The position numbers and the translations under genes are program-made. The notes beneath the pieces were generated by a model. The model did not search any database and was not told the DNA's origin. It saw only the letters and a program-made list of their open reading frames with translations. DNA of 56,411 nucleotides from Coriobacteriales bacterium (GTDB taxonomy: Bacteria > Actinomycetota > Coriobacteriia > Coriobacteriales > RUG844), in NCBI GenBank assembly GCA_017434185.1, contig JAFRFV010000050.1, positions 1 to 56,411 of the forward strand. Reading direction: 5' to 3'. Positions within the stretch are counted from its first letter, which is position 1. Each line of letters opens with the position of its first letter. Positions 7,851 to 49,906 of the stretch are shown here, piece after piece.

Positions 7851-9800
7851 CTACCAGCGTTTCACGATCGTGAGGATGTTCCTGCCATCGCTGCGCTCGT
7901 AGCTGATCTCGTCCACGCTCTTCTTGGCCATCAGGATGCCCAGGCCACCGATGGGCACATCCTCGATCCTCTTGGGAGTGACCGCGTCGGGCTTCTTGAG
8001 GGGATCGAATTCGACGCCGCGGTCAATTAGATCGACCGTGATGGACGGCGGATCGGCGCTGTAGGTACGCTGCACGAGCACCGTGCGCGGCACTTCTGGT
8101 CCAGCGGACTTGTATGCATAGCAGCAGATGTTGGTGAAGAACTCCTCCACCGCGATATCGAGCTTGTTCTGCACGCGCGACGGGCAGAACCTGCGATCGA
8201 GCTCGGCATGCAGGAAGTCGTTCACGCGCTCGAGCTCCGGCAGCAGCGCGGGTACTTCCAGCGATGCGGTGACCTCGGGCGGCACGCCCACCTCGAGCGT
8301 GAGGATGGTGATGTCATCGGATTGCTCGGCGCCCCACGAGAAGCTGTTGACGCCATCGCGCACGGATTCGAGCAGTTCACGCGGATGCAGGCGGTAACCC
8401 CTCTCCGCGATCTCCAGGAGCCCCTTGGTCCCGAACATCTTCTCCTGGGTGTCGAAGGCTTCGGTCACACCGTCGGTATAGAGCAGGAACATGTCGCCCG
8501 GCTTGCAGTCCACGGAGAAGGTGCGATACGTGCGGTCGAAGTTGCCCAACATGGGGCCGGAACGCTGCTTGAGCCAGCGCCAACCACCATCACGTTGCCA
8601 GAGCAGCGGCGGGTTGTGACCGGCGTTGACGTAGTCCACGTGCCCCGTCCCGTAGTCGAGCACGCCCACCCAAGCCGTGACGAACACGCCTTCTTCGTTG
8701 CCTTCGAGCAGCTGACGGTTGGTCTCCGAGACCGCCTCGCCAAGCTCCAGATGCGAGGTCATGTAGTCACGGAGCAGGGCCTTGGCCTTCATCATGAACA
8801 GGGCGGCAGGTACACCCTTGCCGCTCACGTCAGCCACGAGGAAGCCCAGTTTGCCCTTGTAGGCGTCGCAGTCGTCACCGATGAGGAAGAAGTCGTAGAA
8901 GTCGCCACCGATCTGCCTCGCGGCATTCATCGTGGCGTAGATATCGAACTTCATGATGTCCGGGAAGGGCGGGAAGGTACGCGGCAGGGCCGCCTCCTGG
9001 ATGGCGCGTGCGGTTTCGAGTTCGGCATCCATGCGGCTCTCGGTTTCGGCGATGAGCTTCTGCATGGATGAGATGGCGCCGTTGATACCCGCGGTGAGTT
9101 CCTCGAACTCGACGGTGCCTCCCACATCGGCACGTGCGTTCAGATCACCCTTGGCAACGCGGGCGAGTACCGCATTCTCCTGGTCGATGCGCCTGATGAC
9201 GATGTTCTGCAACAACTTGAAGCTGCCCCAGAACATGGCGAGCAGCGCCAACAGGATCGTGAGCGACATGAGAGCGAAGAAGAGCAGGAGGTTGTTGTAG
9301 ACCATCGTCACCGGCTGGACGATGATCACGCTGTAGTCGCCACGACTCATGGCGAGCAGATGGCCCTCACCCAAGGGGGAACCGGGCGGGTAGGGCGTGT
9401 TACCGGGATAGATGACCTTCATCACGTCACCCGTCTCCTGGCTTTGCGCGATGGCACCAAGGGACCTGGCGCCGAAGGTCTTGGACACCTTGGCTCCCTT
9501 GGAGAAACGGGGATTGTTGCTCATGAGGATCGTTCCATCTTCCGTGGCGATTACGACCAGGCCGTTGTCGGCTTCGTCGAAACCATTCATGAGACTGTCG
9601 CCCAGGAAGCCGGACTCCAATTGGTTGAGCAGGTAGTTGGCATCGCCGGTCATGGTCTCCTTGGCAGTCCTGGCCTCGCCGTTCGCGACCATGAAGAAAC
9701 TCATGGCGGAGACGAGCACCGTCACCGCCGCGACGATTATGATGAGCTGCACGGCCAGGACCCTGCGCAGACTCCTCTTCTTGTTGGCTCTCTTGGGCAC
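7851..9800 (-). CDS. Membrane sensor - HAMP - SpoIIE/PP2C phosphatase fused to a C-terminal RsbW-like anti-sigma kinase (HATPase)
   Basis: Two TMs flank a ~130-aa extracytoplasmic domain, followed by HAMP. PP2C motifs GGDFYD, ADVSGKG, YTDGVTEA and DDIT. Kinase boxes EEFFTNI, DRGVEFDP and GGLGI. GTG 9800 follows a GGAGG RBS. Confidence 0.9.
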   Translation of the reverse strand: MPKRANKKRSLRRVLAVQLIIIVAAVTVLVSAMSFFMVANGEARTAKETMTGDANYLLNQLESGFLGDSLMNGFDEADNGLVVIATEDGTILMSNNPRFSKGAKVSKTFGARSLGAIAQSQETGDVMKVIYPGNTPYPPGSPLGEGHLLAMSRGDYSVIIVQPVTMVYNNLLLFFALMSLTILLALLAMFWGSFKLLQNIVIRRIDQENAVLARVAKGDLNARADVGGTVEFEELTAGINGAISSMQKLIAETESRMDAELETARAIQEAALPRTFPPFPDIMKFDIYATMNAARQIGGDFYDFFLIGDDCDAYKGKLGFLVADVSGKGVPAALFMMKAKALLRDYMTSHLELGEAVSETNRQLLEGNEEGVFVTAWVGVLDYGTGHVDYVNAGHNPPLLWQRDGGWRWLKQRSGPMLGNFDRTYRTFSVDCKPGDMFLLYTDGVTEAFDTQEKMFGTKGLLEIAERGYRLHPRELLESVRDGVNSFSWGAEQSDDITILTLEVGVPPEVTASLEVPALLPELERVNDFLHAELDRRFCPSRVQNKLDIAVEEFFTNICCYAYKSAGPEVPRTVLVQRTYSADPPSITVDLIDRGVEFDPLKKPDAVTPKRIEDVPIGGLGILMAKKSVDEISYERSDGRNILTIVKRW

Positions 9801-9848
9801 CAGCACCTCCGCTCGATCACTCGCTCGGACACGTGCTCACTCGAGCAC

Positions 9849-10154
9849 TCAGTCGGTCACGATCTCGAAGACCTCGTTGAGGCCCGTCATCTCGAAGACC
9901 TCCATGACCTCTTCGCAGGGGTGCAGCAGGCGCATGGTGCCCCCGCGCTTGACGGCCAACTTGTCGGCGGCCACGAGCACGCGCAGACCGGCGGAAGCGA
10001 CGTAACTCACTTCCTTCATGTCGATGTCCAGATCGTAAACGGTGTGGGGCAGCTGATCCACCGCGGCGGTCAACTCAGGTGAAGTGTTGACGGTGAGCTT
10101 GCCACCCAGCTCGATAGTCGCCTTGCTGTCCTCGATCTTGGTCACGATCTTCAT
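9849..10154 (-). CDS. STAS-domain anti-sigma-factor antagonist
   Basis: 101 aa with GKLTVNTSPEL and the phospho-acceptor motif YVASAGLRVL; AAGGAAGG RBS. Confidence 0.9.
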   Translation of the reverse strand: MKIVTKIEDSKATIELGGKLTVNTSPELTAAVDQLPHTVYDLDIDMKEVSYVASAGLRVLVAADKLAVKRGGTMRLLHPCEEVMEVFEMTGLNEVFEIVTD

Positions 10155-10158
10155 GTTC

Positions 10159-12351
10159 TCATCCTTCCTTATCCAAACGCTGGCGTTCAACCAACTCAGC
10201 GAAGATTCCGTTCTTGGCTATGAGTTCCTCGTAGGTTCCCTGTTCTGCGATGACACCGTCGTCGACCACAAGTATACGGTCACAATGCTTCACGGTCGAG
10301 AGGCGATGTGCCACGACGATGCGCGTACACTTGAGTTTGGCCAGCGCATCGGCCACGTGCTTCTGGGTGATGTTGTCGAGTGCGCTCGTGGCCTCGTCCA
10401 GCATGAGGATGCGACGCTTGCCACATACGGCACGCGCGATCATGAGACGCTGCCGCTGTCCGCCGGAGATGCCACTGCCGCTTTCGGATATGAGCGTCTG
10501 CATACCCATGGGCATCTTGCGTATGTCCTTGGCGATGCCGGCCAACTCCGCAGCAGCCCATGCATCATCGACCGTCGCAAGCGGATTCGAGATGGTGATG
10601 TTGGACAGGATATCGCCCATGAACAACTTGCCATCCTGCATGACCACACCGATGCGCTGACGCAACGACGTCAGATCGACCTTGCTCGTATCGTAGGGGC
10701 CATAGAAGATACTGCCGCGCTCGGGCGTCTCGAAGCCCAGGAGCAGGCGCATGATGGTCGACTTGCCACAACCACTCTTGCCCACGATGGCCACGTATTC
10801 ACCCTGTCGCACCTTGAACGAGAGGTCACGCAGCACATAGGGGCTCGTCTCGGAATAGCGGAACGCCACACCGGAGACCTCGATCGCACCACTGATGTTC
10901 TCCACCGAGGGCTTATCCTCAGCGATCTCGGGCGTCGCCTCCAGGATGGGTGCCGTCAGGTCGAGCAGGGGCCTGATCTGGGCCATCTCACCCGCGATGC
11001 CCGCGAGCGCCATGATGGCGGCCGTCACCTGGCCATAAGCCACGTTGAACGCCATGAACTCGGCCACGCTCACGCCCTTCATGCCCGCCAGATAGTAGAT
11101 GAGGATGTTACCCAGCAAGCCGATGAGCGCCACGAATGCGGGGAGCGCCTGCACGAGCGTCGGACGATTGTAGTTCACCCGCGCGAGATCCGAGAACTCA
11201 TGCGCCCATTTGGCGAAGGCGCGGTCCTCAGCACCGGCCAGCTTGATCTTCTGGATACCCTCCAGAAGCGCCGTCACCGTACCGGAGAGCTTGGCCTGCA
11301 TCCTCATTCCCTCGTACTCGTAGTTGCGCGTAATGAACGCGGCGATCACGGTGAGCCCCGCTTGCAGGAAGACGACAGCGAAGGCGGGAAGCGCGAGAGA
11401 CGGTGTGATCACGCCGATCTGGAAGATGTAGATGATCGACATGGCGCACGAGAGGAACGAACCCAGCAGGATGGAGGTGATGAGCAGCGAGAGTGTGGTC
11501 ACGCTCGCCACGCGGCTCGCCAGATCACCGGTCTCGTACTGCTTGAAGAACGACGTGGGGAGTGAGAGCACGCGCGAGAAGGTGGCGGCTTCGGCCGCGT
11601 TGCGCAGCTTACCGGACACACGCTCCATCACCAACTTGCGGTAGACGTTGATGAGCGTGGTTGAAACCGCCACGCCAAGCAGGAGGGCGGCGATGGGAAG
11701 GATAAGCCCGGATTGGCCGGAAGGTGCCACCACTTCGAAGGCGACCTTGTTCACCCACGCGGGGAGCAAGCCGATGAGTGCGACGGCGAACGATGCGAAG
11801 AACAGGAGCAGATAATCGCCCCGGCTGTAGATGCGCGAGAGGAACTGGATGAGGTCACGCGTGGTGAGCGCCTTCGCGGGCAGGGGGCGGTAGAACACCT
11901 CGGCATCGGGTAGGATGTGTTGCGCGACCTCGTCGGTCACCTTGAGCTTGCGTCCTGTGCCGGGCTCGAGGTAATGGAAGCCGTGTACGCTCCTGGGCAG
12001 AAGGGCGATCGACTGGCCCGTGTCCATCTTGGCCACCATGGCGCCGAAACCGTTCTTGTGCCAGCCGGGGGTCAGATACACCTTGCGGCGCATCGTGCCG
12101 CTGGGACGGCAGAGCCAATCCAAGCGTTCATTGGGATCGCGGACGCTGTCGGAAACATGTCCGGGAGTGATACCGTAGTACTTGAGACAGGCCCTGGCGG
12201 TGCCATCGACCTGCTCCAGCTCGTCGATGGTGTAGAAGGGCGCCTGGTTGGGATCGGTCACACTCGCTGCAAGCTGATTGAACGCACGCTCCGTGATCTC
12301 CGCGTCAAGACGCATACGGGTCTCGATCTGGGATTCCATCCACCTAGTCAT
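10159..12351 (-). CDS. NHLM/NHLP-system ABC transporter permease/ATPase (subunit without an active peptidase)
   Basis: ABC membrane domain, Walker A GKSGCGKST, signature ISGGQRQR and Walker B LDEATSALD. The N-terminus lacks the C39 catalytic Cys. The start overlaps the upstream stop. Confidence 0.88.
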   Translation of the reverse strand: MTRWMESQIETRMRLDAEITERAFNQLAASVTDPNQAPFYTIDELEQVDGTARACLKYYGITPGHVSDSVRDPNERLDWLCRPSGTMRRKVYLTPGWHKNGFGAMVAKMDTGQSIALLPRSVHGFHYLEPGTGRKLKVTDEVAQHILPDAEVFYRPLPAKALTTRDLIQFLSRIYSRGDYLLLFFASFAVALIGLLPAWVNKVAFEVVAPSGQSGLILPIAALLLGVAVSTTLINVYRKLVMERVSGKLRNAAEAATFSRVLSLPTSFFKQYETGDLASRVASVTTLSLLITSILLGSFLSCAMSIIYIFQIGVITPSLALPAFAVVFLQAGLTVIAAFITRNYEYEGMRMQAKLSGTVTALLEGIQKIKLAGAEDRAFAKWAHEFSDLARVNYNRPTLVQALPAFVALIGLLGNILIYYLAGMKGVSVAEFMAFNVAYGQVTAAIMALAGIAGEMAQIRPLLDLTAPILEATPEIAEDKPSVENISGAIEVSGVAFRYSETSPYVLRDLSFKVRQGEYVAIVGKSGCGKSTIMRLLLGFETPERGSIFYGPYDTSKVDLTSLRQRIGVVMQDGKLFMGDILSNITISNPLATVDDAWAAAELAGIAKDIRKMPMGMQTLISESGSGISGGQRQRLMIARAVCGKRRILMLDEATSALDNITQKHVADALAKLKCTRIVVAHRLSTVKHCDRILVVDDGVIAEQGTYEELIAKNGIFAELVERQRLDKEG

Positions 12352-14503
12352 TGCGCACCAACTCCGCATATGCCCCGTTTTGTGCCAGGAGCTGGTCGTG
12401 GGTGCCTCTCTCGACCACCTTGCCCTCGTCGAGCACGATGATCTCATCACAATCGCGGATGGTGCTCAGGCGGTGTGCGACGACAACACAGGTGATGCCA
12501 CGGTCGCGGATGCGCCCGATCACCTCGGCTTCGGTTTGGGCATCAAGGGCGCTCGTGGCCTCATCCAGGATGACGATGGTGGGATCCTGTGCGAGGACAC
12601 GCGCTATCTCGAGTCGTTGCAGCTGACCGCCGCTGTAATTGCGGCCTCCCGGCAGGATGCGGCTGTTGTAGCCACCTTCACGGGCGGCGATCACGTCATG
12701 GATGCCAGCATCGCGACAGGCGAGGATGACCTCGTAGTCCTCGATGCTCCTGTCCCATAGCTTGACGTTGTCGCTCACCGTATCATCGAAGGTCACGATG
12801 TCCTGGTCCACAACGGAAAGCGAGCAACGCAGGATGGGCGTGGGGATCTCGCGCAGGGGGATACCGTCGAAGAGCACCTGTCCGCTCCAGGGATCGAAGA
12901 GGCCGGAGATGATCTTCGCGATCGTGCTCTTGCCGCAGCCCGAGCCGCCCACGAGCGCGACCCACTGGCCCGGCTCGAGATGGAGATCGAAGTTCTCGAC
13001 CAGCGGGGGCTCGAACGGCGAGTAGCCAAAGGTCACACCCTGCAGGTCGATGCGACCACGTAGTTTCTCGTGATCGAAGTCCTGGGCGGGAAGCGCCTGT
13101 GCATCCTCCGGTACGTCGACTGGATTGCGCATGACGTCTTCGACGCGCTCCATCTCGGTGCTCACCTCCTGGACCGTCTGGCCCAGACCGATCAACTGCG
13201 TCACCGGCTCCATGAACGAACTCAGGAAGCCTGTGAAGGCGAGTAACATACCGGGCGTGAATTGATGTTCGATGATGAGCCAGATGCCCAACACGAAGAC
13301 CACGATGTTGGCGATCTTGGTCACGAGCGTGGGAACCACGCCAAGGACCTCGTTCACGCGCATCAGACGACCGCGTGTGCCACCGAAGATCACCTGGTAG
13401 CCGGCCCAGCGGCTGAAGAAGCCCCTCTCCGCACCGGCGGCCTTGATGGTCTCGATCATCTGGATGCCGTTCACCGTGGTCGAATACTGCTTGCTCGCGT
13501 TGATCGTGTTGGCGCGCGAGACGTTCACGCGCTGCGTGGAGATGTAGTGCGCGACGAACGCGTTCGCGATCACGGTGACCACACCCACCAGGGTGAGCAG
13601 AGCGCTGTAATTGAGCATGATGAACAGGTAGAGCACCAGCATGAGGGTGTTCACGAGCACCGGAGCCAGACGCCCCACGAGTGACATCGCGATCTGCTCG
13701 TTGGCGGACTGGCGTTGCTGCAGATCGCCTATCATGCGCTGCGAGAAGAAGCCCACGGGCAGATGCAGCAGATGGCGCATGAAGCGTGATGAACTCACCA
13801 CGGCGATCTTGCCCTGGATGCGGTTCAGGAACACGGCGTTCAGAACGGTCATGATACCGCTGATGATCGCGAGTATGAGCATGACGGCCATCAGGGGGAT
13901 GAGCCAGTCAGGGTCGTTTCGGGTCAGGATGCGGTCCATGAAGACCTGGCCGAGCGACGTGCTCAGGATGGCCACGAGCGAGCTCACCAATGCGGTGAGC
14001 ATGACGAAGGTGATGGCGGGAGCAAGACCCTTCAGTCGTTGGCGCGCATACTTGAGCGTGTCGGGCTTCTGGCCACCGGGCTCGAAGGCGTCGGTCTTCT
14101 CGAACATGAGCGCGACACCGGTGAAGCTCTTGTTGAATTCGCTCATGCTCACTTTGAGCTGCCCGCGTGCGGGATCGTTGATGAGAGCGAACTTGCCCTT
14201 GAAGCCACACAGCACGACGAAGTGGTTGAAGTTCCAGAACAGGATGCAGGGGATGTTCCCGCTCTTGCGCAGCGCCTCACTCGAGAAGCTCATCCCCTTG
14301 GCGGATAAGCCATAGCGCCGTGCGGCTTTGAGCATGTTCGAGGCCTTGGAGCCATCGCGGGAGACGCCGCAATCCTCACGCACCTGCTCGAGCGGCACCC
14401 AGCGGCCGTAGTACGCGAGGATCATGGTGAGACAGGCGGCGCCGCATTCGAGCGCCTCCATCTGCATGACCTGCGGGACCTTGACGACGGAATCGGTCAT
14501 CAC
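12344..14503 (-). CDS. NHLM/NHLP-system C39 peptidase / ABC transporter
   Basis: C39 triad intact: QMEALECGAACL (Cys), WNFNHFVV (His) and INDPARG (Asp). Walker A GGSGCGKST and signature YSGGQLQR. Confidence 0.93.
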   Translation of the reverse strand: MMTDSVVKVPQVMQMEALECGAACLTMILAYYGRWVPLEQVREDCGVSRDGSKASNMLKAARRYGLSAKGMSFSSEALRKSGNIPCILFWNFNHFVVLCGFKGKFALINDPARGQLKVSMSEFNKSFTGVALMFEKTDAFEPGGQKPDTLKYARQRLKGLAPAITFVMLTALVSSLVAILSTSLGQVFMDRILTRNDPDWLIPLMAVMLILAIISGIMTVLNAVFLNRIQGKIAVVSSSRFMRHLLHLPVGFFSQRMIGDLQQRQSANEQIAMSLVGRLAPVLVNTLMLVLYLFIMLNYSALLTLVGVVTVIANAFVAHYISTQRVNVSRANTINASKQYSTTVNGIQMIETIKAAGAERGFFSRWAGYQVIFGGTRGRLMRVNEVLGVVPTLVTKIANIVVFVLGIWLIIEHQFTPGMLLAFTGFLSSFMEPVTQLIGLGQTVQEVSTEMERVEDVMRNPVDVPEDAQALPAQDFDHEKLRGRIDLQGVTFGYSPFEPPLVENFDLHLEPGQWVALVGGSGCGKSTIAKIISGLFDPWSGQVLFDGIPLREIPTPILRCSLSVVDQDIVTFDDTVSDNVKLWDRSIEDYEVILACRDAGIHDVIAAREGGYNSRILPGGRNYSGGQLQRLEIARVLAQDPTIVILDEATSALDAQTEAEVIGRIRDRGITCVVVAHRLSTIRDCDEIIVLDEGKVVERGTHDQLLAQNGAYAELVRND

Positions 14504-15009
14504 GCATTGCCTCCCAGCACCAGTCTGATGGGTGCGATGCGCTCGGTCGTGATGGTGACGGTGAGTGGGACGTTCTCATCCAGCGACCCGGTGGTCCCTT
14601 GGAAGACCACCTGATACGCCCAATCCCCTTCGACGAGCGCACTCACCAGGTAGTCACTGCGCAGGATCCCACTCGCTTCATCACGGGAGACGGGCACGCG
14701 GGAGATGCTCGCGACCTTCATCTGCTCGCCACCCACCACGGCGACGTCGCCCACCTGGACTTTGGCGGCATCCTCCGCTTCAAGGAAGCACATGGCGCTA
14801 CCATCCACGCAAACGCCCGTGGTGGAGACGCTCGTGGTGACCGCGCCGAAGACGCCCCAGGCGAGAAGGCCCAGGAGCAGGGCGATACAGGCACCTATGA
14901 TGTACCAGACACTGGGGGTGGTCACACCCAGATACTTGTCCAGGTCATCCGGATTGCGCAACCTCTGCGTGGCCTGTTGGTTGAAGATCGAACTCTTGGT
15001 GTCCGCCAT
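14500..15009 (-). CDS. Short NHLM-system secretion accessory protein (HlyD-like, no long coiled coil)
   Basis: N-terminus SIFNQQATQRLRNPDDLDKYLGVTTPSVW followed by a TM, and C-terminal TERIAPIRLV, both typical of NHLM secretion proteins. Only 169 aa. Confidence 0.75.
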   Translation of the reverse strand: MADTKSSIFNQQATQRLRNPDDLDKYLGVTTPSVWYIIGACIALLLGLLAWGVFGAVTTSVSTTGVCVDGSAMCFLEAEDAAKVQVGDVAVVGGEQMKVASISRVPVSRDEASGILRSDYLVSALVEGDWAYQVVFQGTTGSLDENVPLTVTITTERIAPIRLVLGGNA

Positions 15010-15515
15010 CACTGGCTCCTCTCTGCGGCCCGACGCATCTTCTCGAGCGCACGTGCGAGTTTGGTGGAAACGGTTGATGGTTTCATGCACAGCTCCTGCG
15101 CGATCCGCGCATTGCGCATGCCATCACGGTATTTGAGTGCAACGATCTCGCGTTCCTTCTGATCAAGGCACGCGAGCAGTTGCTTGATCAACATGAGGTC
15201 GAGTGAGGCATCCTGCTCCGGGGCGAGCTCGAGCAGAGGCTCCGGCACATCGTCGAGCACAACAAGCGTGCGCTCCTTGCGATAATGGCTCACCAGGCAG
15301 TTCTTGGCGATGGCGATGACCCAGGTGCTGAACCCAGCGCGCGTCGGGTCGAAGGAATCGAAGGAGCGGGCAGCCTTCAGGAACGCCTCGCTCACGATGT
15401 CCTGGGCATCCGCATCACAGGCCGCACGGGCCCGCACGAAACCATAGACGGTGGCGAAACTCTCGTTGTAGAGGCGAGTGAATTCACGCTCGCGGTCCGA
15501 AGGGGACTGCGTCAC
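15009..15515 (-). CDS. ECF sigma-70 factor (no. 1)
   Basis: Region 2 'AQDIVSEAFLKA' and 'FSTWVIAIAKN'; region 4 HTH 'EREIVALKYRDGMRNARIAQEL...TVSTKLARA'. A TGATG overlap couples it to the secretion gene. Confidence 0.92.
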   Translation of the reverse strand: MTQSPSDREREFTRLYNESFATVYGFVRARAACDADAQDIVSEAFLKAARSFDSFDPTRAGFSTWVIAIAKNCLVSHYRKERTLVVLDDVPEPLLELAPEQDASLDLMLIKQLLACLDQKEREIVALKYRDGMRNARIAQELCMKPSTVSTKLARALEKMRRAAERSQ

Positions 15516-15626
15516 GCGGGCAGGGCGCAGCGCAGCCCACTCCGGCCTGCGGGGTGTGGCTCCTGCCTTGTCACCTGCATTGAACGTCGCGGACTCCGTT
15601 CGACGGCGTCAGTTCCATAGCAGATG

Positions 15627-15635
15627 ATTGTAGCA
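15627..15635 (-). promoter_or_regulatory. Candidate extended -10 (TGCTACAAT) for the ECF sigma no. 1 / transporter operon
   Basis: A TGnTACAAT match about 110 nt upstream of the sigma start codon, in the intergenic gap. Confidence 0.4.
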
Positions 15636-15665
15636 TACTGCGGCTTGGGTTTGAGGCTGCCCCGC

Positions 15666-15899
15666 TCAATCCAAGGGGGATTCAGATGCATCCGGGACGG
15701 CGTGCCCTGCGGCGAGTTCCGGAACACCGGCGGCGGCGAGCATCTCCAGGTCGTCGTCATCGAGTGGCATGCCCTCGTCGTTGGCATGCAATGTGGCGAT
15801 GCAGCGTTCGAGCAGCGCATCACGGAACCCCTGTGTGCCCGCACTCAGGTCCTGTTGCATCATGCGTTCCAACATCTGCTCGAACTCTCGTTCTTCCAC
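15666..15899 (-). CDS. 77-aa acidic protein with an internal double-glycine-leader-like motif; candidate anti-sigma factor
   Basis: GGAGG RBS then GTG 15899: MEEREFEQMLERMMQQDLSAGTQGFRDALLERCIATLHANDEGMPLDDDDLEMLAAAGVPEL... It lies directly upstream of the ECF sigma gene. Confidence 0.7.
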   Translation of the reverse strand: MEEREFEQMLERMMQQDLSAGTQGFRDALLERCIATLHANDEGMPLDDDDLEMLAAAGVPELAAGHAVPDASESPLD

Positions 15900-15954
15900 G
15901 TCCGCCTCCCCTTCCGTGTCCCGCTCGCATGCGCCCATGCATGCTCATGCCCTT

Positions 15955-15982
15955 TATACGTACGGAGAAGGGCTTTCGTCCC
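15955..15982 (-). promoter_or_regulatory. Candidate ECF promoter GGGACG-N16-CGTATA (toward the 77-aa gene and transporter operon)
   Basis: On the minus strand, -35 at 15977-15982 and -10 at 15955-15960, with a 16-nt spacer. It matches the divergent copy. Confidence 0.5.
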
Positions 15983-16014
15983 AGGGAATCTTGAAGAATC
16001 ATTCCCGATTCGTT

Positions 16015-16042
16015 GAGACAGAAACAGTCCTTGCAACGTACA
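16015..16042 (+). promoter_or_regulatory. Candidate ECF promoter GAGACA-N16-CGTACA (toward the precursor peptide)
   Basis: -35 at 16015-16020, -10 at 16037-16042 and a 16-nt spacer, 44 nt upstream of ATG 16086. Confidence 0.5.
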
Positions 16043-16085
16043 ATGTTCGGACGAAGGGAATGACCCTCTTGAGAAGGGATCGATC

Positions 16086-16313
16086 ATGATAGACAGTCAA
16101 ACCGAAGGCATCGAGCTCCCTGATGAGCTGCTCGAAGCGGTCGCAGGTGGACGCCTGGCGGACATCGGCATGGACAACTTCCGCTCTTGGCTGGCGTTCG
16201 CCAAGGAGAAGGGTTTCGATAAGGACTTCGCTCTGGCCACCTTCGGTGGTGCGGGCCTGGCACTCGCCGACGGGTTCACCGACAAGCTCGCCTCGATGTG
16301 GGACGAGATCTAG
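16086..16313 (+). CDS. Double-glycine-leader precursor peptide (22-aa leader plus 53-aa Cys-free core)
   Basis: GAAGGGA RBS; leader MIDSQTEGIELPDELLEAVAGG; divergent from a C39 exporter; followed by a strong hairpin. Confidence 0.85.
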   Translation: MIDSQTEGIELPDELLEAVAGGRLADIGMDNFRSWLAFAKEKGFDKDFALATFGGAGLALADGFTDKLASMWDEI

Positions 16314-16345
16314 GGAACGCGACGCGAACCAAGCATGGAACACCA

Positions 16346-16369
16346 AGGCCCGCAGGAAACTGCGGGCCT
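16346..16369. terminator. Stem-loop between convergent genes (probable terminator)
   Basis: AGGCCCGCAG-GAAA-CTGCGGGCCT: a perfect 10-bp stem with a GNRA loop. Confidence 0.7.
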
Positions 16370-16400
16370 CGTCATTTCAATCGTTCGTGCTCTCCAAGGG

Positions 16401-17567
16401 TCAGATGCGCGTACGCGAACGACGCGCGGTCATGCTGATGCTGATAAGCGCGGCGCCAGCGAGCAGGGCAAGCGCTGCGATGGGCGCGGTATCGCCGGTC
16501 TTGGGGGTGCTGCCGTCCTCGGCGTCGCCGCTGCCACCATCGCCGTTGTCGTCGCCGTCGTCGTCGCCGTTGGGTGTGGGATCGGCGTTCTTCTCGTAGA
16601 TAGCGGTGTAGTCATGATCGCCTTCGACGACGAACTCCTCACCTGCTTGAAGCTGAGAGCCTTCCCAATACTTGAACGTGTGGCCGTCAAGCGTGGGGGC
16701 ACCGGGAGCCTTGATCGTCTCGCCCACGTTCGCATCGATGGTGATGCTGCCTCCGGTCTGGCTATCGAGCGTGCCCTCACCCAGGTTGAAGGTGAGCTTC
16801 GCTGGTGTCGTGGTCAGGTACTGGGTATCCGTGACCCTTCCAGACAAGCCGGATGAAGGGTAATCGGAAGACCGCGCCGTGATTACTGCCTCGAACTTAG
16901 CGTCGCCACTATGGATAATAACATCGTAGGGCACCGTATACGGGAAGTCGTGCGTCATGCTTCCGTCGGGAGCAAGAGTCTCGATAAGCCACGACGCTCC
17001 GGAAAGATGGTCGCTGATCAAGATGTCGTTCAAGTTGGCGAGCCCTACATTCTTGACGGTGACCTTCCAATTGATCGTCTCGCCGAATACATATTGGGGA
17101 CCATTACTGGGAGGGTTGGTGGCTTCGACGGTGACGTACAGAGGAGACGCTGGAAGAGTGTAGGATCTTGTGGCGGTGATCTCTTCGTCGGAGAATTCGT
17201 GAGTGGAAGCGGAGAACGTGAAGTCCTTCTCGATCGAACCGGCAAGCGCATCGTCTTGGGTCACAGTATGCGTGAGGGTGGCTGTCATCTTTTCTCCAGG
17301 GGCGAGGTGTGAAAACAACAGGGTTTTGTCACCCTCCTCGTCGGTGACTCCGATATTGACGAGTTCCTGGTAGTCTCCGCAGGTGAAATCCACCTCCCAC
17401 TTGATGACATCGCCAGGGACATAGGCGAAACCATGGAGAGGGTCATCAAGGGGACCCCTCATCTCGATTGTCATACAATCATCCAAGTCTTCGGCAAGAG
17501 CCGAACCTGGAAACAGCACCGCTGCCACCATCAGGCTCAGCAACGCGATGATGAGTCTCTTCTTCAT
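16401..17567 (-). CDS. Sortase-anchored surface protein with two Ig-like (DUF11/DUF7507-like) repeats and an InlB B-repeat-like domain
   Basis: Signal peptide; repeats 'YVPGDVIKWEVDFT..N..VTD' and 'YVFGETINWKVTVKNVG...ISD'; 'PTLDGHTFKYW...YTAIY'; TPKTGD, TM and basic tail. AGGAGG RBS. Confidence 0.85.
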   Translation of the reverse strand: MKKRLIIALLSLMVAAVLFPGSALAEDLDDCMTIEMRGPLDDPLHGFAYVPGDVIKWEVDFTCGDYQELVNIGVTDEEGDKTLLFSHLAPGEKMTATLTHTVTQDDALAGSIEKDFTFSASTHEFSDEEITATRSYTLPASPLYVTVEATNPPSNGPQYVFGETINWKVTVKNVGLANLNDILISDHLSGASWLIETLAPDGSMTHDFPYTVPYDVIIHSGDAKFEAVITARSSDYPSSGLSGRVTDTQYLTTTPAKLTFNLGEGTLDSQTGGSITIDANVGETIKAPGAPTLDGHTFKYWEGSQLQAGEEFVVEGDHDYTAIYEKNADPTPNGDDDGDDNGDGGSGDAEDGSTPKTGDTAPIAALALLAGAALISISMTARRSRTRI

Positions 17568-42624: not shown

Positions 42625-42666
42625 GGGACGGACACCTCCCTGGGTAGAACAGTCTTACGATGCTGA

Positions 42667-42701
42667 AATACGCAGGGAGGATGGATTCCTCTCACTTTTT
42701 T
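42667..42701 (-). promoter_or_regulatory. Candidate ECF promoter (A6 tract, TGAGAG-N16-CGTATT) for the giant-protein operon
   Basis: In the 107-nt gap after prsW: -35 at 42689-42694, -10 at 42667-42672, A-tract at 42696-42701. Confidence 0.5.
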
Positions 42702-44062: not shown

Positions 44063-44466
44063 CTGGACGCACTCCCGTCGTGGTCGCCGTTGGGCTTGCC
44101 GGGAGCATTGGATTTCGTATCGTCGCTGATGGCGCCGGCGTATCCATCCTCCTTCATGCGCTCTTTGACCCTCATGCAGAGCAGCGTCACACCCACGCCC
44201 AGGCAGAACGCCAGGATGCCGATGACGACGAACCCCAGCATGCCACCCGAAGCCACGATCGAGCCGTACATTCCCGTTGGCCCCGATGGTGTGGCTGGGG
44301 CGGCGTTCATGACACCGGGGATGTAGGCGGCGAAGCCGACGATGATGGCGAGCGAAGCAGCGACACCAAGCCCCGACACCAGCATACTGTTGCGCTGGCG
44401 CCGGTTGCGCTGCAATTCGCGCGTACGCATCTGTACCGCAGCGAGTCTCTCATCAGTCGAACGCAT
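44059..44466 (-). CDS. 2-TM membrane protein directly after ECF sigma no. 2; candidate anti-sigma
   Basis: MRSTDERLAAVQMRTRELQR, TM1, loop, and TM2 LGFVVIGILAFCLGVGVTLL. Overlaps the sigma stop. Confidence 0.75.
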   Translation of the reverse strand: MRSTDERLAAVQMRTRELQRNRRQRNSMLVSGLGVAASLAIIVGFAAYIPGVMNAAPATPSGPTGMYGSIVASGGMLGFVVIGILAFCLGVGVTLLCMRVKERMKEDGYAGAISDDTKSNAPGKPNGDHDGSASR

Positions 44467-44998
44467 CCGTCACACCCTTCTTCACCAAGAGCGGTTTCAT
44501 CGCCACCTTACCGCGCGCGATCAGGTTGTCCACCTGTTTGCGCGACTTGCCCATCACTTCCGCGGCCCGCTCGTAGGACATGCCCTCAATATACACGAGA
44601 TAGAGCGCCTCGCGATAGTCCGCGGGGAGCTCGTCCAAACAGTCGCGCACGATGCGCGATACATCGGTCGAGAAGACCGTGGTCTCCACGCGGCGCTCAT
44701 CCTCCGGCTCGAGCTCGAGCAACTCGAAACTGAGGGTACGCCTGCTCCGCTCCAGATGGCGCAGAGCCAGGTTGCGTGCGGTCTTGTACAGGTACGGACG
44801 GAACCCACCCGCAACGAGCCGCGGACGCTTGGCGATGACACGCGAGAAGGACTCGATCATGAGGTCTTCGGATTCGTGGATGTCATGGAGGTACCCGTTG
44901 ATATACAGGGTGAGACTGTCACCATAGCGGTCCATGAGCACCCTCAGACCCGACTCGTCTCCTAAGAGGAAGCCGTTGAAACAGCGCTCATCATTCAT
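44453..44998 (-). CDS. ECF sigma-70 factor (no. 2)
   Basis: SEDLMIESF, FRPYLYKTARNLAL, and region 4 LPADYREALYLVYIEGMSYERAAEVMG. Start codon uncertain (44998 or 45013). TATAAT lies at 45049-45054 on the minus strand. Confidence 0.92.
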   Translation of the reverse strand: MNDERCFNGFLLGDESGLRVLMDRYGDSLTLYINGYLHDIHESEDLMIESFSRVIAKRPRLVAGGFRPYLYKTARNLALRHLERSRRTLSFELLELEPEDERRVETTVFSTDVSRIVRDCLDELPADYREALYLVYIEGMSYERAAEVMGKSRKQVDNLIARGKVAMKPLLVKKGVTDAFD

Positions 44999-45121
44999 GC
45001 CGTCGCGCATCATCACCCCGGGGGAATCGACGTTTGGAACCATCTGCGATTATACGCGATGCCCCTTCATGGGGATACGGTCGCACGGTCGACCGGAGTG
45101 GCAGGCGAGAGCCCGTGCGAA

Positions 45122-49781: not shown

Positions 49782-49906
49782 GCTTCGAACGGAGCAGTGA
49801 CAAAGAGCGGGCGCACTATCGTTGGAGGACCAAGTGCGGTAGTATGCAGACAAGAAGCGTGGCGCGGTCGTATGATCGAGCGCTGGAGTGAGAACCGGGA
49901 GGCACC

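What the first reader, a model, noticed from the sequence alone, without database searches (positions are those of the whole stretch)
15955..16042. Back-to-back matched ECF-type promoters
The 186-nt divergent gap holds GGGACG-N16-CGTATA on the minus strand and GAGACA-N16-CGTACA on the plus strand. Both fit G[AG]GAC[AG]-N16-CGTA[CT]A with identical spacing, 32 nt apart. A CGTA -10 is typical of ECF promoters. This would put both the precursor and the anti-sigma/exporter side under sigma no. 1, creating feedback.
Basis: partly seen in the sequence, partly recalled or inferred. Interest (0 to 1): 0.62.

Follow-up and report, generated by a model that had tools for sequence, protein, structure and literature searches.

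The report
Paired sigma-factor promoters, peptide-export locus
Two back-to-back promoter sites in a 186-base gap are very probably real targets of the alternative (ECF) sigma factor encoded next to them, so that this factor switches on its own operon (with a peptide exporter) and a small exported peptide; this is an ordinary kind of control, here defined for an unstudied sigma family of gut and rumen bacteria.

Summary
GGGACG-N16-CGTATA lies on the minus strand (15982-15955) and GAGACA-N16-CGTACA on the plus strand (16015-16042), 32 nt apart.

It is far more than chance. I trained a weight matrix only on promoters from 11 unrelated metagenomic loci that carry the same sigma family. That matrix ranks these two sites 1st and 2nd among 3.97 million positions of the organism's own genome.

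All 18 loci with the small-protein + ECF-sigma pair carry the motif, or a variant differing at one or two core positions, upstream of the pair. The consensus is tTGrGACGrA-N14-tGCGTATAAg. An unbiased search finds it too. It is absent from 75 loci that have the homologous exporter but not the sigma.

The divergent arrangement, with the second site in front of a double-glycine peptide gene, recurs in two other loci.

Three corrections apply:
- The 170-aa protein after sigma is a truncated HlyD-like export accessory, not an anti-sigma.
- The candidate partner is the 77-aa protein before sigma.
- The 32-nt distance is not conserved.

No transcript data could be obtained. It is a new member of a known kind.

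The parts
15977..15982 (-). -35 element GGGACG of the promoter of the small-protein/sigma/exporter operon (extended form ctGGGACGAA)
   Evidence: G, A and C of the GAC core are invariant or nearly so in 19 sites. Part of the genome-wide rank-1 matrix hit.
The start site is predicted roughly 5-10 nt downstream, around 15950-15943.
   Evidence: CGTA is invariant in 19 of 19 aligned sites. The start-site position is inferred from ECF promoters in general (8-10 nt for MibX promoters, PMC4973701).
16015..16020 (+). -35 element GAGACA of the promoter of the 75-aa double-glycine peptide gene
   Evidence: Genome-wide rank 2, 19.6 bits. The orthologous site in L011 is GGGACG-N16-CGTACAAT.
It can also be read as the sigma70-type hexamer TACAAT, 18 nt after GAGACA.
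   Evidence: The identical CGTACAAT is found in L011.
15666..15899 (-). 77-aa protein (GTG start, Shine-Dalgarno GGAGG at 15909-15905) and first gene of the operon. It is the conserved partner of the sigma. Its conserved N-terminal 58 residues end in LAAAG and are followed by a variable tail.
   Evidence: Present next to the sigma in 18 loci. 233 cluster representatives. No Pfam or PDB match.
15009..15515 (-). ECF sigma factor, 168 aa ('sigma no. 1')
   Evidence: Pfam Sigma70_r2 1.4e-15 and Sigma70_r4_2 2.5e-11. TIGR02937 100.4 bits. Nearest solved structures are SigL, BldN and SigW.
14500..15009 (-). 169-aa single-pass membrane protein, a truncated HlyD-like NHLP secretion accessory. Its start overlaps the sigma stop codon (TGATG).
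   Evidence: TIGR03794 positions 1-82 of 421, E 3e-10. Conserved after the sigma in 13 loci.
12344..14503 (-). C39-peptidase ABC exporter (NHLM_micro_ABC1)
   Evidence: TIGR03796 938 bits, above the 853.3 cut-off. Peptidase_C39 2.9e-35.
10159..12339 (-). Second ABC exporter subunit (NHLM_micro_ABC2-like). The ATG at 12339 lies 4 nt after the ABC1 stop codon.
   Evidence: TIGR03797 691 bits, just under the 709 cut-off. Start read.
9849..10154 (-). STAS-domain protein. The ATG at 10154 lies 4 nt after the ABC2 stop codon.
   Evidence: STAS_2 4.5e-14. Start read. A STAS gene follows ABC2 in L013, L015, L016, L018 and L024.
7851..9806 (-). HAMP - SpoIIE (PP2C phosphatase) - HATPase_c_2 (RsbW-like kinase) fusion protein, the probable last gene of the operon
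   Evidence: A homologue (49% identity) lies downstream in L009.
16086..16313 (+). 75-aa peptide with a double-glycine leader (…ELPDELLEAVAGG|R…) and a 53-aa cysteine-free core
   Evidence: 56%-identical orthologue in L011 behind the same promoter motif. The leader fits the NHLP/N11P logo described in PMC2887384.
16347..16368 (+). GC-rich hairpin ggcccgcag-gaaa-ctgcgggcc after the peptide gene, between convergent genes. Probable terminator of the monocistronic peptide transcript.
   Evidence: Read. The simple terminator scan did not call it because it has no T run.
15627..15635 (-). TGcTACAAT, an extended -10-like element in the 150-nt gap between the small gene and sigma. Candidate housekeeping promoter that would give basal sigma/exporter expression.
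   Evidence: Read. TGaTACAAT lies at the matching place in L011, and TATAAT-like hexamers lie in the same gap of L009 and L022. Inference only.

Best explanation
The two sites are genuine promoters recognised by RNA polymerase carrying the ECF sigma factor encoded at 15009-15515.

The minus-strand promoter (GGGACG-N16-CGTATA) drives a roughly 8-kb operon. It encodes the 77-aa partner protein, the sigma itself, a truncated HlyD-like accessory, a C39-peptidase ABC exporter, a second ABC subunit, a STAS protein and a PP2C/RsbW-kinase fusion. The sigma therefore raises its own level and that of its export and regulatory machinery, which is positive autoregulation. If the 77-aa protein holds the sigma in check, its co-induction adds negative feedback.

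The plus-strand promoter (GAGACA-N16-CGTACA) drives a monocistronic 75-aa double-glycine peptide, the likely cargo of that exporter. In this genome the regulon appears to be just these two promoters.

Shown by computation: the motif exists, it is conserved with fixed spacing, it sits in the correct position and orientation, it is specific to loci that carry this sigma family, and it stands out genome-wide.

Inferred: that this sigma, rather than another factor, reads it; the start sites; the direction of the feedback; and the role of the 77-aa protein.
For: 1. The sigma is a bona fide ECF.
2. In 13 loci from metagenomes and one related genome (sigma 54-80% identical, GC 48-68%), the regex [AG][AG]GACN-N16-CGTA gives 21 hits in 151 kb on both strands. 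One lies before the small gene in each of 12 of those loci; L024 has GGGATG instead. Six more lie before other genes, and the 3 intragenic hits all read CGTAG.
3. An unbiased enumeration of all 4-mer/spacer/4-mer pairs in 12 foreign upstream regions returns GACG-N16-CGTA as the top pair, present in 9 of 12. The maximum in 200 shuffles is 4.
4. A matrix trained on foreign sites alone ranks the window's two sites 1st and 2nd in the genome.
5. All hits of 19 bits or more in the foreign loci lie 31-88 nt upstream of a Shine-Dalgarno sequence plus start codon (one automatic gene call, for L013, was wrong; that site precedes its small gene by 42 nt). Six of them were not used in training.
6. Specificity: 5 further Coriobacteriia loci with the small+sigma pair carry the motif or a near variant differing at one or two core positions, whereas 75 loci with homologous exporters but no such sigma give only 3 hits of 17 bits or more in about 690 kb. 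Two loci with a more distant sigma (48-50% identity) and no small gene lack the motif.
7. In the window-versus-L011 alignment of the gap, identity is concentrated in the two -35 and two -10 boxes, while the spacers diverge.
8. The divergent pair recurs in L011 and L022 with double-glycine peptides as targets.
9. CGTA as an ECF -10 element is documented (PMC5758882).
Against: The -35 core is GAC rather than the AAC typical of ECF promoters.

The plus-strand site scores lower (19.6 against 25.6 bits). It also reads as a fair sigma70-type promoter, GAGACA-N18-TACAAT, 9 of 12.

The genome holds two other small sigma-70-family genes, and the second one in the window also has CGTAT-type -10 boxes nearby.

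The training sites were first located with a regex derived from the window's own motif. The unbiased search mitigates this.
Confidence: 0.75

Rival explanations
1. One or both sites are ordinary housekeeping (sigmaA/sigma70-type) promoters. The CGTATAA box would simply be a TATAAT-like -10, with the GAC box as a weak TTGACA-like -35 at 18-nt spacing. Alternatively the peptide promoter is dual, read by both sigmas.
For: The consensus scan calls the plus site GAGACA-N18-TACAAT, 9 of 12, where 0.2 such matches are expected. The peptide promoters of the window and of L011 both end in CGTACAAT, which has the -7 T.
Against: CG immediately before TA is invariant in 19 of 19 sites, which a sigma70 -10 does not require. 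The position equivalent to -7 T is G or A in 15 of 19 sites. The -35 never reads TTGACA, although G, A and C are invariant or nearly so. The motif occurs only where this ECF sigma is encoded. A housekeeping promoter would not be rank 1 and 2 genome-wide under a matrix trained on loci of other organisms.
Confidence: 0.1
2. The motif is a real promoter but is read by a different alternative sigma of the genome: sigma no. 2 at 44453-45043, or the 160-aa sigma on contig C106.
For: The genome has 5 sigma-70-family genes. Sigma no. 2 also has CGTAT boxes in its own neighbourhood.
Against: In 18 loci from different organisms the motif sits directly upstream of the operon that holds a sigma no. 1 homologue. 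The -35 regions near sigma no. 2 are different (GGAATCC-like, with no GAC at the right distance). No matrix hit of 12 bits or more lies near it.
Confidence: 0.05
3. The conserved bipartite sequence is the binding site of a DNA-binding regulator, an activator or repressor, rather than the promoter itself.
For: W and L011 share an extra GATTCnnT block just upstream of each -35. The window also has an inverted repeat, GGGAAT-N11-ATTCCC, between the two sites.
Against: No DNA-binding regulator other than the sigma is conserved across the loci. The motif is asymmetric and always oriented towards the downstream gene. It lies 31-88 nt before the start codon and has the 16-nt spacing and the CGT -10 of ECF promoters.
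Confidence: 0.05
4. Chance resemblance of two sequences in one intergenic gap.
Against: Ranks 1 and 2 of 3.97 million positions with a matrix trained elsewhere. Conserved in 18 loci. Estimated chance of about 3e-4 for the weaker site alone.
Confidence: 0.01

Closest known systems
Bacillus subtilis sigmaW autoregulatory and regulon promoters (tGAAAC-N16-CGTA; PMC5758882)
   Same: A bipartite ECF promoter with a 16-nt spacer and a CGTA(TA) -10. It is placed in front of the sigma's own operon, so the sigma autoregulates. SigW is among the three closest solved structures to this sigma.
   Different: The -35 reads tTGrGACGrA (core GAC) instead of TGAAAC. The sigma is only distantly related (E 1e-10). 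The operon holds a peptide exporter and no membrane anti-sigma or PrsW/RasP proteolysis partners. The apparent regulon is 2 promoters, not dozens.
MibX/MibW (microbisporicin) and the related PspX/PspW ECF systems of actinomycete lantibiotic clusters (PMC4973701)
   Same: A pathway-specific ECF sigma inside a ribosomal-peptide export locus. Its consensus promoter is repeated in front of its own gene and of other cluster operons, including transporters, which gives feed-forward expression.
   Different: The MibX motif is GAACC-N15-GCTAC. The precursor operon mibA is NOT under the ECF motif but under MibR, whereas here the peptide gene itself carries the motif. MibW is a membrane anti-sigma; here there is only a 77-aa soluble-looking partner. 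No modification enzymes are present here.
NHLP / Nif11-derived peptide export systems (TIGR03794/03796/03797; Haft et al. 2010, PMC2887384)
   Same: The C39 ABC exporter passes the TIGR03796 cut-off. The second ABC subunit and the HlyD-like protein are of the same families. The 75-aa peptide has the family's 13-residue Gly-Gly motif.
   Different: That paper does not mention any sigma factor (0 occurrences). The HlyD-like protein here is cut down to about 170 aa. The peptide has a 22-aa leader with no NHLP or Nif11 domain. 75 homologous exporter loci in Clostridia lack both the sigma and the motif.
FlgM/sigma28 export-coupled control (from my own knowledge; works-like comparison for the novel reading only)
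   Same: If the 77-aa partner inhibits the sigma and is handled by the co-encoded exporter, gene expression would be coupled to export capacity. FlgM secretion frees sigma28 in the same way.
   Different: Binding of the partner to the sigma is not shown, and neither is its processing by the exporter. The exporter is an ABC/C39 machine, not a type III system.

Membership tests
ECF (group 4) sigma-dependent promoter | Bipartite -35/-10 motif with a fixed spacer of about 16-17 nt | tested here: met
   16 nt between the hexamers in all 19 aligned sites.
ECF (group 4) sigma-dependent promoter | -10 element containing CGT (CGTA/CGTC) | tested here: met
   CGTA in 19 of 19 sites. Literature basis: PMC5758882.
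ECF (group 4) sigma-dependent promoter | -35 element with the conserved AAC core | tested here: not met
   The core is GAC (G 19/19, A 19/19, C 18/19). It shares the AC but not the first A. ECF groups are known to differ in the -35, so this lowers typicality rather than plausibility.
ECF (group 4) sigma-dependent promoter | Located upstream of the operon encoding the cognate ECF sigma (autoregulation) | tested here: met
   True in the window and in 17 other loci.
ECF (group 4) sigma-dependent promoter | Transcription start a few nt downstream of the -10 and dependence on the sigma in vivo or in vitro | not testable with these tools
Sigma70/sigmaA housekeeping promoter | TTGACA-like -35, 16-18 nt spacer, TATAAT-like -10 with A at position 2 and T at position 6 | tested here: inconclusive
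   The plus site passes a loose scan at 9 of 12. The minus site and most family members lack the final T and never have TTG in register.
NHLP/N11P bacteriocin export system (TIGR03794/6/7) | ABC exporter with C39 peptidase scoring above the TIGR03796 cut-off | tested here: met
   938 bits against a cut-off of 853.3.
NHLP/N11P bacteriocin export system (TIGR03794/6/7) | Full-length HlyD-like TIGR03794 protein and a TIGR03797 partner above cut-off | tested here: not met
   TIGR03794 matches only positions 1-82 of 421, at 39.6 bits against 156.2. TIGR03797 scores 691 against 709.4.
NHLP/N11P bacteriocin export system (TIGR03794/6/7) | Precursor with an NHLP (TIGR03793) or Nif11 (TIGR03798) leader domain | tested here: not met
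   Neither the 75-aa peptide nor the 77-aa protein gives an NCBIfam or Pfam hit. Only the 13-residue Gly-Gly motif is shared.
MibX/MibW-type ECF-controlled peptide cluster | ECF sigma with a co-transcribed membrane anti-sigma, and the ECF motif on several cluster operons | tested here: inconclusive
   The ECF motif lies on two transcription units (met). No membrane anti-sigma was found; the partner is a 77-aa protein of an unknown family.

The most novel reading that the evidence does not exclude
The promoter pair is the output stage of an undescribed export-coupled switch. In this reading the 77-aa protein, made first from the autoregulated promoter, is both the inhibitor of the ECF sigma and a pseudo-substrate or substrate of the co-encoded C39 exporter. 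Its conserved end PLDDDDLEMLAAA|G fits the NHLP/N11P cleavage logo in register, with Ala-Ala in place of Gly-Gly. Exporter activity or cargo load would then set sigma activity, as FlgM does for sigma28. The STAS/PP2C-kinase module would add a second input, and the two promoters would close a self-amplifying loop on the exported peptide.
Probability: 0.2. Interest if true: 0.75.

Novelty: new member of a known kind. Interest (0 to 1): 0.42.

Why it matters
The result gives an uncharacterised ECF sigma family of rumen and gut Coriobacteriia a concrete, testable target motif: tTGrGACGrA-N14-tGCGTATAAg. The family has 89 homologues at 46% identity or more in metagenomes.

It shows that this sigma's local regulon is its own exporter operon plus genes for exported products. 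These are double-glycine peptides here, and in relatives also a CotH-like protein, an HAD-like membrane protein and a lipoprotein. The motif can be used to find the cargo genes of such loci, which are otherwise hard to recognise.

Direct ECF control of a double-glycine peptide gene differs from the lantibiotic paradigm (MibX), in which the precursor operon is not under the ECF motif.

The sigma-promoter pair may also serve as an orthogonal expression part.

The mechanism class, an autoregulated ECF promoter, is well known, so the finding is solid but not surprising in itself.

Tried and rejected
- The search for related loci with the sigma alone in genome contigs found only unrelated 27-28% hits.
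- The genome search found the sigma in 2 of 60 relatives and in none of 400 other genomes of the class. The comparison therefore rests on metagenomic contigs fetched through the search for homologous proteins and the look-up of encoding contigs and on exporter-based loci.
- Rfam found nothing meaningful in 15300-16500.
- The 170-aa protein after sigma as an anti-sigma: rejected, because it is TIGR03794-like.
- The 32-nt spacing between the two -35 boxes as a functional constraint: rejected, because it is 110 nt in L011 and 87 nt in L022.
- Additional regulon members in the own genome: the third-best hit (C88:4683-4654, CGTAGA) lies antisense inside a membrane-protein reading frame and is taken as chance. 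The site at 49847 scores 11.8 bits, which is within control noise.
- The matrix with spacer columns included was noisy and put the plus site only 9th. I replaced it with a spacer-neutral matrix.
- Family assignment of the 77-aa protein: no Pfam or PDB sequence match. The AlphaFold model shows three helices but at low confidence (pLDDT 69.5, pTM 0.32), so I ran no fold search.
- Motif upstream of other double-glycine peptides (L019 Nif11 peptide, L020 Nif11-like, L031 96-aa peptide): no clear site, at best degenerate ones.
- Literature: no paper in the searchable library links ECF sigma factors with double-glycine or NHLP systems. The ECF reclassification paper does not mention C39, bacteriocin or STAS contexts in its main text.

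Full report
**Observation**

The sequence is exactly as described.
- Minus strand: GGGACG (15982-15977), a 16-nt spacer, then CGTATA (15960-15955).
- Plus strand: GAGACA (16015-16020), a 16-nt spacer, then CGTACA (16037-16042).
- 32 nt separate the two -35 hexamers.
- The gap is 186 nt (15900-16085). It lies between the GTG at 15899 of a 77-aa gene (Shine-Dalgarno GGAGG at 15909-15905) and the ATG at 16086 of a 75-aa gene.

The reversed control pattern has three.

**Gene map**

The minus-strand genes, in order, are:
- the 77-aa protein (15899-15666);
- after a 150-nt gap, an ECF sigma (15515-15009; Sigma70_r2 and r4_2, TIGR02937);
- a 169-aa single-pass protein whose ATG overlaps the sigma stop codon. 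It matches only the first 82 positions of the NHLP HlyD-like secretion protein TIGR03794, so it is an export accessory and not an anti-sigma;
- a C39-peptidase ABC exporter (TIGR03796, 938 bits);
- a second ABC subunit (ATG 12339);
- a STAS protein (ATG 10154);
- a HAMP-PP2C-RsbW-kinase fusion.

The plus strand carries a 75-aa peptide with a double-glycine leader, ELPDELLEAVAGG|R. It is followed by a GC hairpin (16347-16368) and a convergent gene.

A second ECF sigma lies at 44453-45043.

**Relatives**

The sigma family is rare in reference genomes: 2 of 60 relatives and none of 400 other genomes of the class. It has 89 homologues at 46% identity or more in metagenome-derived proteins, one of them named from an Olsenella MAG.

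I fetched 13 loci with context, L009 and L011-L025. A search with the exporter protein then gave 80 more. The nearest of these are rumen and gut Coriobacteriia MAGs, and the distant ones are Clostridia.

The gene order small protein - sigma - 169-aa protein - ABC1 - ABC2 - STAS is conserved. In L019, L020 and L021 the small-protein/sigma pair occurs without an adjacent exporter.

**Is the motif real?**

1. A relaxed regex, [AG][AG]GACN-N16-CGTA, run over 151 kb on both strands gave 21 hits.
   - One lies upstream of the small gene in each of 12 of the 13 loci with a small gene, the window included (L024 carries the variant GGGATG). All of these read CGTA[TC]A, with CGTATG in L009.
   - Six more precede other genes.
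   - The three intragenic hits all read CGTAG.
   - L024 has GGGATG-N16-CGTATAAG.
2. An unbiased enumeration of all 4-mer/spacer/4-mer pairs in 12 foreign upstream regions returns GACG-N16-CGTA as the best pair, present in 9 of 12. The maximum in 200 shuffles is 4.
3. A weight matrix built only from the 11 foreign small-gene sites, with neutral spacer columns, was scanned over all 3,967,914 positions of the organism's genome.
   - The minus-strand site is rank 1 (25.6 bits) and the plus-strand site is rank 2 (19.6 bits).
   - The reversed-genome control has nothing at or above 18 bits.
   - Rank 3 is an antisense intragenic CGTAGA site.
4. In the foreign loci every hit of 19 bits or more lies 31-88 nt upstream of a Shine-Dalgarno sequence plus start codon. 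Six of these sites were not in the training set.
5. Specificity was checked in the 80 exporter-based loci.
   - Only five carry the small-protein/sigma pair.
   - Four of those five have a hit of 20 bits or more at the head of that operon. The fifth has the variant GAGACG-N16-CGTAGTAAG.
   - The 75 loci without the sigma (about 690 kb) give three hits of 17 bits or more.
   - Two loci with a 48-50% identical sigma and no small gene lack the motif.
6. In the alignment of the window's gap with that of L011 (sigma 80% identical), identity is concentrated in the two -35 and two -10 boxes, and the spacers diverge.

The 19-site consensus is tTGrGACGrA-N14-tGCGTATAAg. G, A (of GAC) and CGTA are invariant.

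**The divergent site**

The plus-strand site is the weaker of the two, but it is independently supported.
- L011 has GGGACG-N16-CGTACAAT in front of an 81-aa orthologue of the window's peptide (56% identity).
- L022 has GAGACG-N16-CGTATAAG in front of an unrelated 96-aa double-glycine peptide, again back-to-back with the small-gene promoter.

The distance between the paired -35 boxes is 32, 110 and 87 nt in the three loci, so the 32 nt has no conserved meaning.

Other motif-bearing genes in relatives encode a membrane-anchored CotH-like protein (L013), an HAD-like membrane protein (L021), a DUF5666 lipoprotein (L022) and a YbjQ-like protein ahead of the small gene (L031). The regulon is therefore the sigma's own operon plus exported or envelope products.

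**Which sigma?**

Physical linkage in 18 loci from different organisms points to the adjacent sigma. The window's second ECF has different -35 sequences near its own CGTAT boxes. No matrix hit of 12 bits or more lies near it.

A housekeeping reading is possible for the peptide promoter: GAGACA-N18-TACAAT scores 9 of 12. Several facts argue against it for the family as a whole:
- the CG before TA is invariant;
- the final T is absent in 15 of 19 sites;
- TTG is never in register.

A dual promoter for the peptide gene cannot be excluded.

**Comparison with known systems**

A CGTA -10 is the element that confers sigmaW-selective recognition in B. subtilis, with a -35 of tGAAAC and a 16-nt spacer (PMC5758882). 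Here the -35 core is GAC.

ECF sigmas inside ribosomal-peptide clusters are known. MibX/MibW of microbisporicin uses GAACC-N15-GCTAC on five operons, including its own, and gives feed-forward production, but the precursor operon is not under the ECF motif (PMC4973701).

The exporter belongs to the NHLP/N11P export family of Haft et al. 2010. That paper mentions no sigma factor.

No paper in the searchable library links ECF sigmas with double-glycine or NHLP systems.

**How it most likely works**

RNA polymerase with this ECF sigma starts transcription a few nucleotides downstream of each CGTA box.
- Leftwards, it makes the 77-aa protein, more sigma, the exporter and the STAS/PP2C-kinase module.
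- Rightwards, it makes the exported peptide.

This is positive autoregulation with co-induction of cargo and exporter.

The 77-aa protein is the conserved partner of the sigma. Its family has 233 cluster representatives, no known domain and a low-confidence three-helix model. It is the most likely inhibitor, which would add negative feedback, but binding is not shown.

A TGnTACAAT element in the small-gene/sigma gap (15635-15627, shared with L011) may give basal, ECF-independent sigma expression.

**Verdict**

The kind of thing, an autoregulated ECF promoter plus a target promoter, is well known. The sigma family, its motif and its direct control of double-glycine peptide genes are new members of that kind.

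Experimental start-site mapping and sigma-dependence tests remain to be done.

Noticed in passing
window 15666-15899 (-); alignment A1: The 77-aa partner protein ends its conserved part with x-L-[SD]-D-x-[ED]-L-[DE]-[ML]-L-[AS]-A-A-G. Placed in register with the NHLP/N11P cleavage logo (acidic at 1, 4, 6; Leu at 2, 7; Val/Leu at 10; Gly-Gly at 12-13; PMC2887384), it fits at every position except that Ala-Ala replaces Gly-Gly, followed by an invariant Gly. The tail after this motif is variable in sequence and length (6-35 aa), like a core peptide.
   Followed up: partly
window 15627-15635 (-) and 15560-15625 (-): The 150-nt gap between the small gene and sigma holds TGcTACAAT (extended -10-like) and a hairpin, tcatctgc…gcaggtga. 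Both are shared with L011. L009 and L013 instead have strong terminator-like hairpins after the small gene. This suggests partial termination after the small gene, an internal housekeeping promoter for sigma, or both.
   Followed up: partly
window 15984-16012: Between the two -35 boxes lies an inverted repeat, GGGAAT-N11-ATTCCC (15984-15989 and 16001-16006). Each -35 is preceded by GATTCnnT. The GATTCnnT blocks are also present in L011 but not in more distant loci.
   Followed up: partly
L018 2415-5001; L024 1762-5001: In this variant architecture the small gene, with its ECF motif, is followed by a histidine kinase and a response regulator before the sigma gene.
   Followed up: no
L013 3458-3429 (-), L021 6870-6841 (-), L022 1909-1938 (+), L031 1839-1868 (+): In relatives the same motif precedes non-peptide genes: a membrane-anchored CotH-like protein, an HAD-like membrane protein, a DUF5666 lipoprotein with a long acidic low-complexity region, and a YbjQ-like (DUF74-type) gene placed ahead of the small gene.
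   Followed up: partly
L034-L105 (Clostridia loci): Homologous NHLP-type C39 exporters (51-57% identity) are widespread in rumen and gut Clostridia MAGs. They keep the short, roughly 170-aa HlyD-like protein but lack this sigma, the small protein and the motif. Some have an unrelated sigma (27-36% identity) a few kb downstream.
   Followed up: no
window 42650-42700 (-) and 45040-45060 (-): The window's second ECF sigma region also has CGTAT-type -10 boxes (ctgCGTATTT before the small paralogue and giant-protein genes; cgCGTATAAT before the sigma cassette). They have different -35 sequences, so the two ECFs may share -10 preference and be told apart by the -35.
   Followed up: no
window 17607-42311 (-): An 8,234-codon open reading frame lies on the minus strand. 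The neighbouring 388-aa protein has DUF7507/DUF11 repeats, so a giant surface protein lies just beyond the peptide gene.
   Followed up: no
L019 766-966 (-), L020 455-802 (+) and 1668-3383 (-): Some small-protein/sigma pairs sit next to Nif11-leader peptides with Cys-rich cores and a LanM-like DUF4135 protein. No clear copy of the motif was found in front of those peptides.
   Followed up: partly
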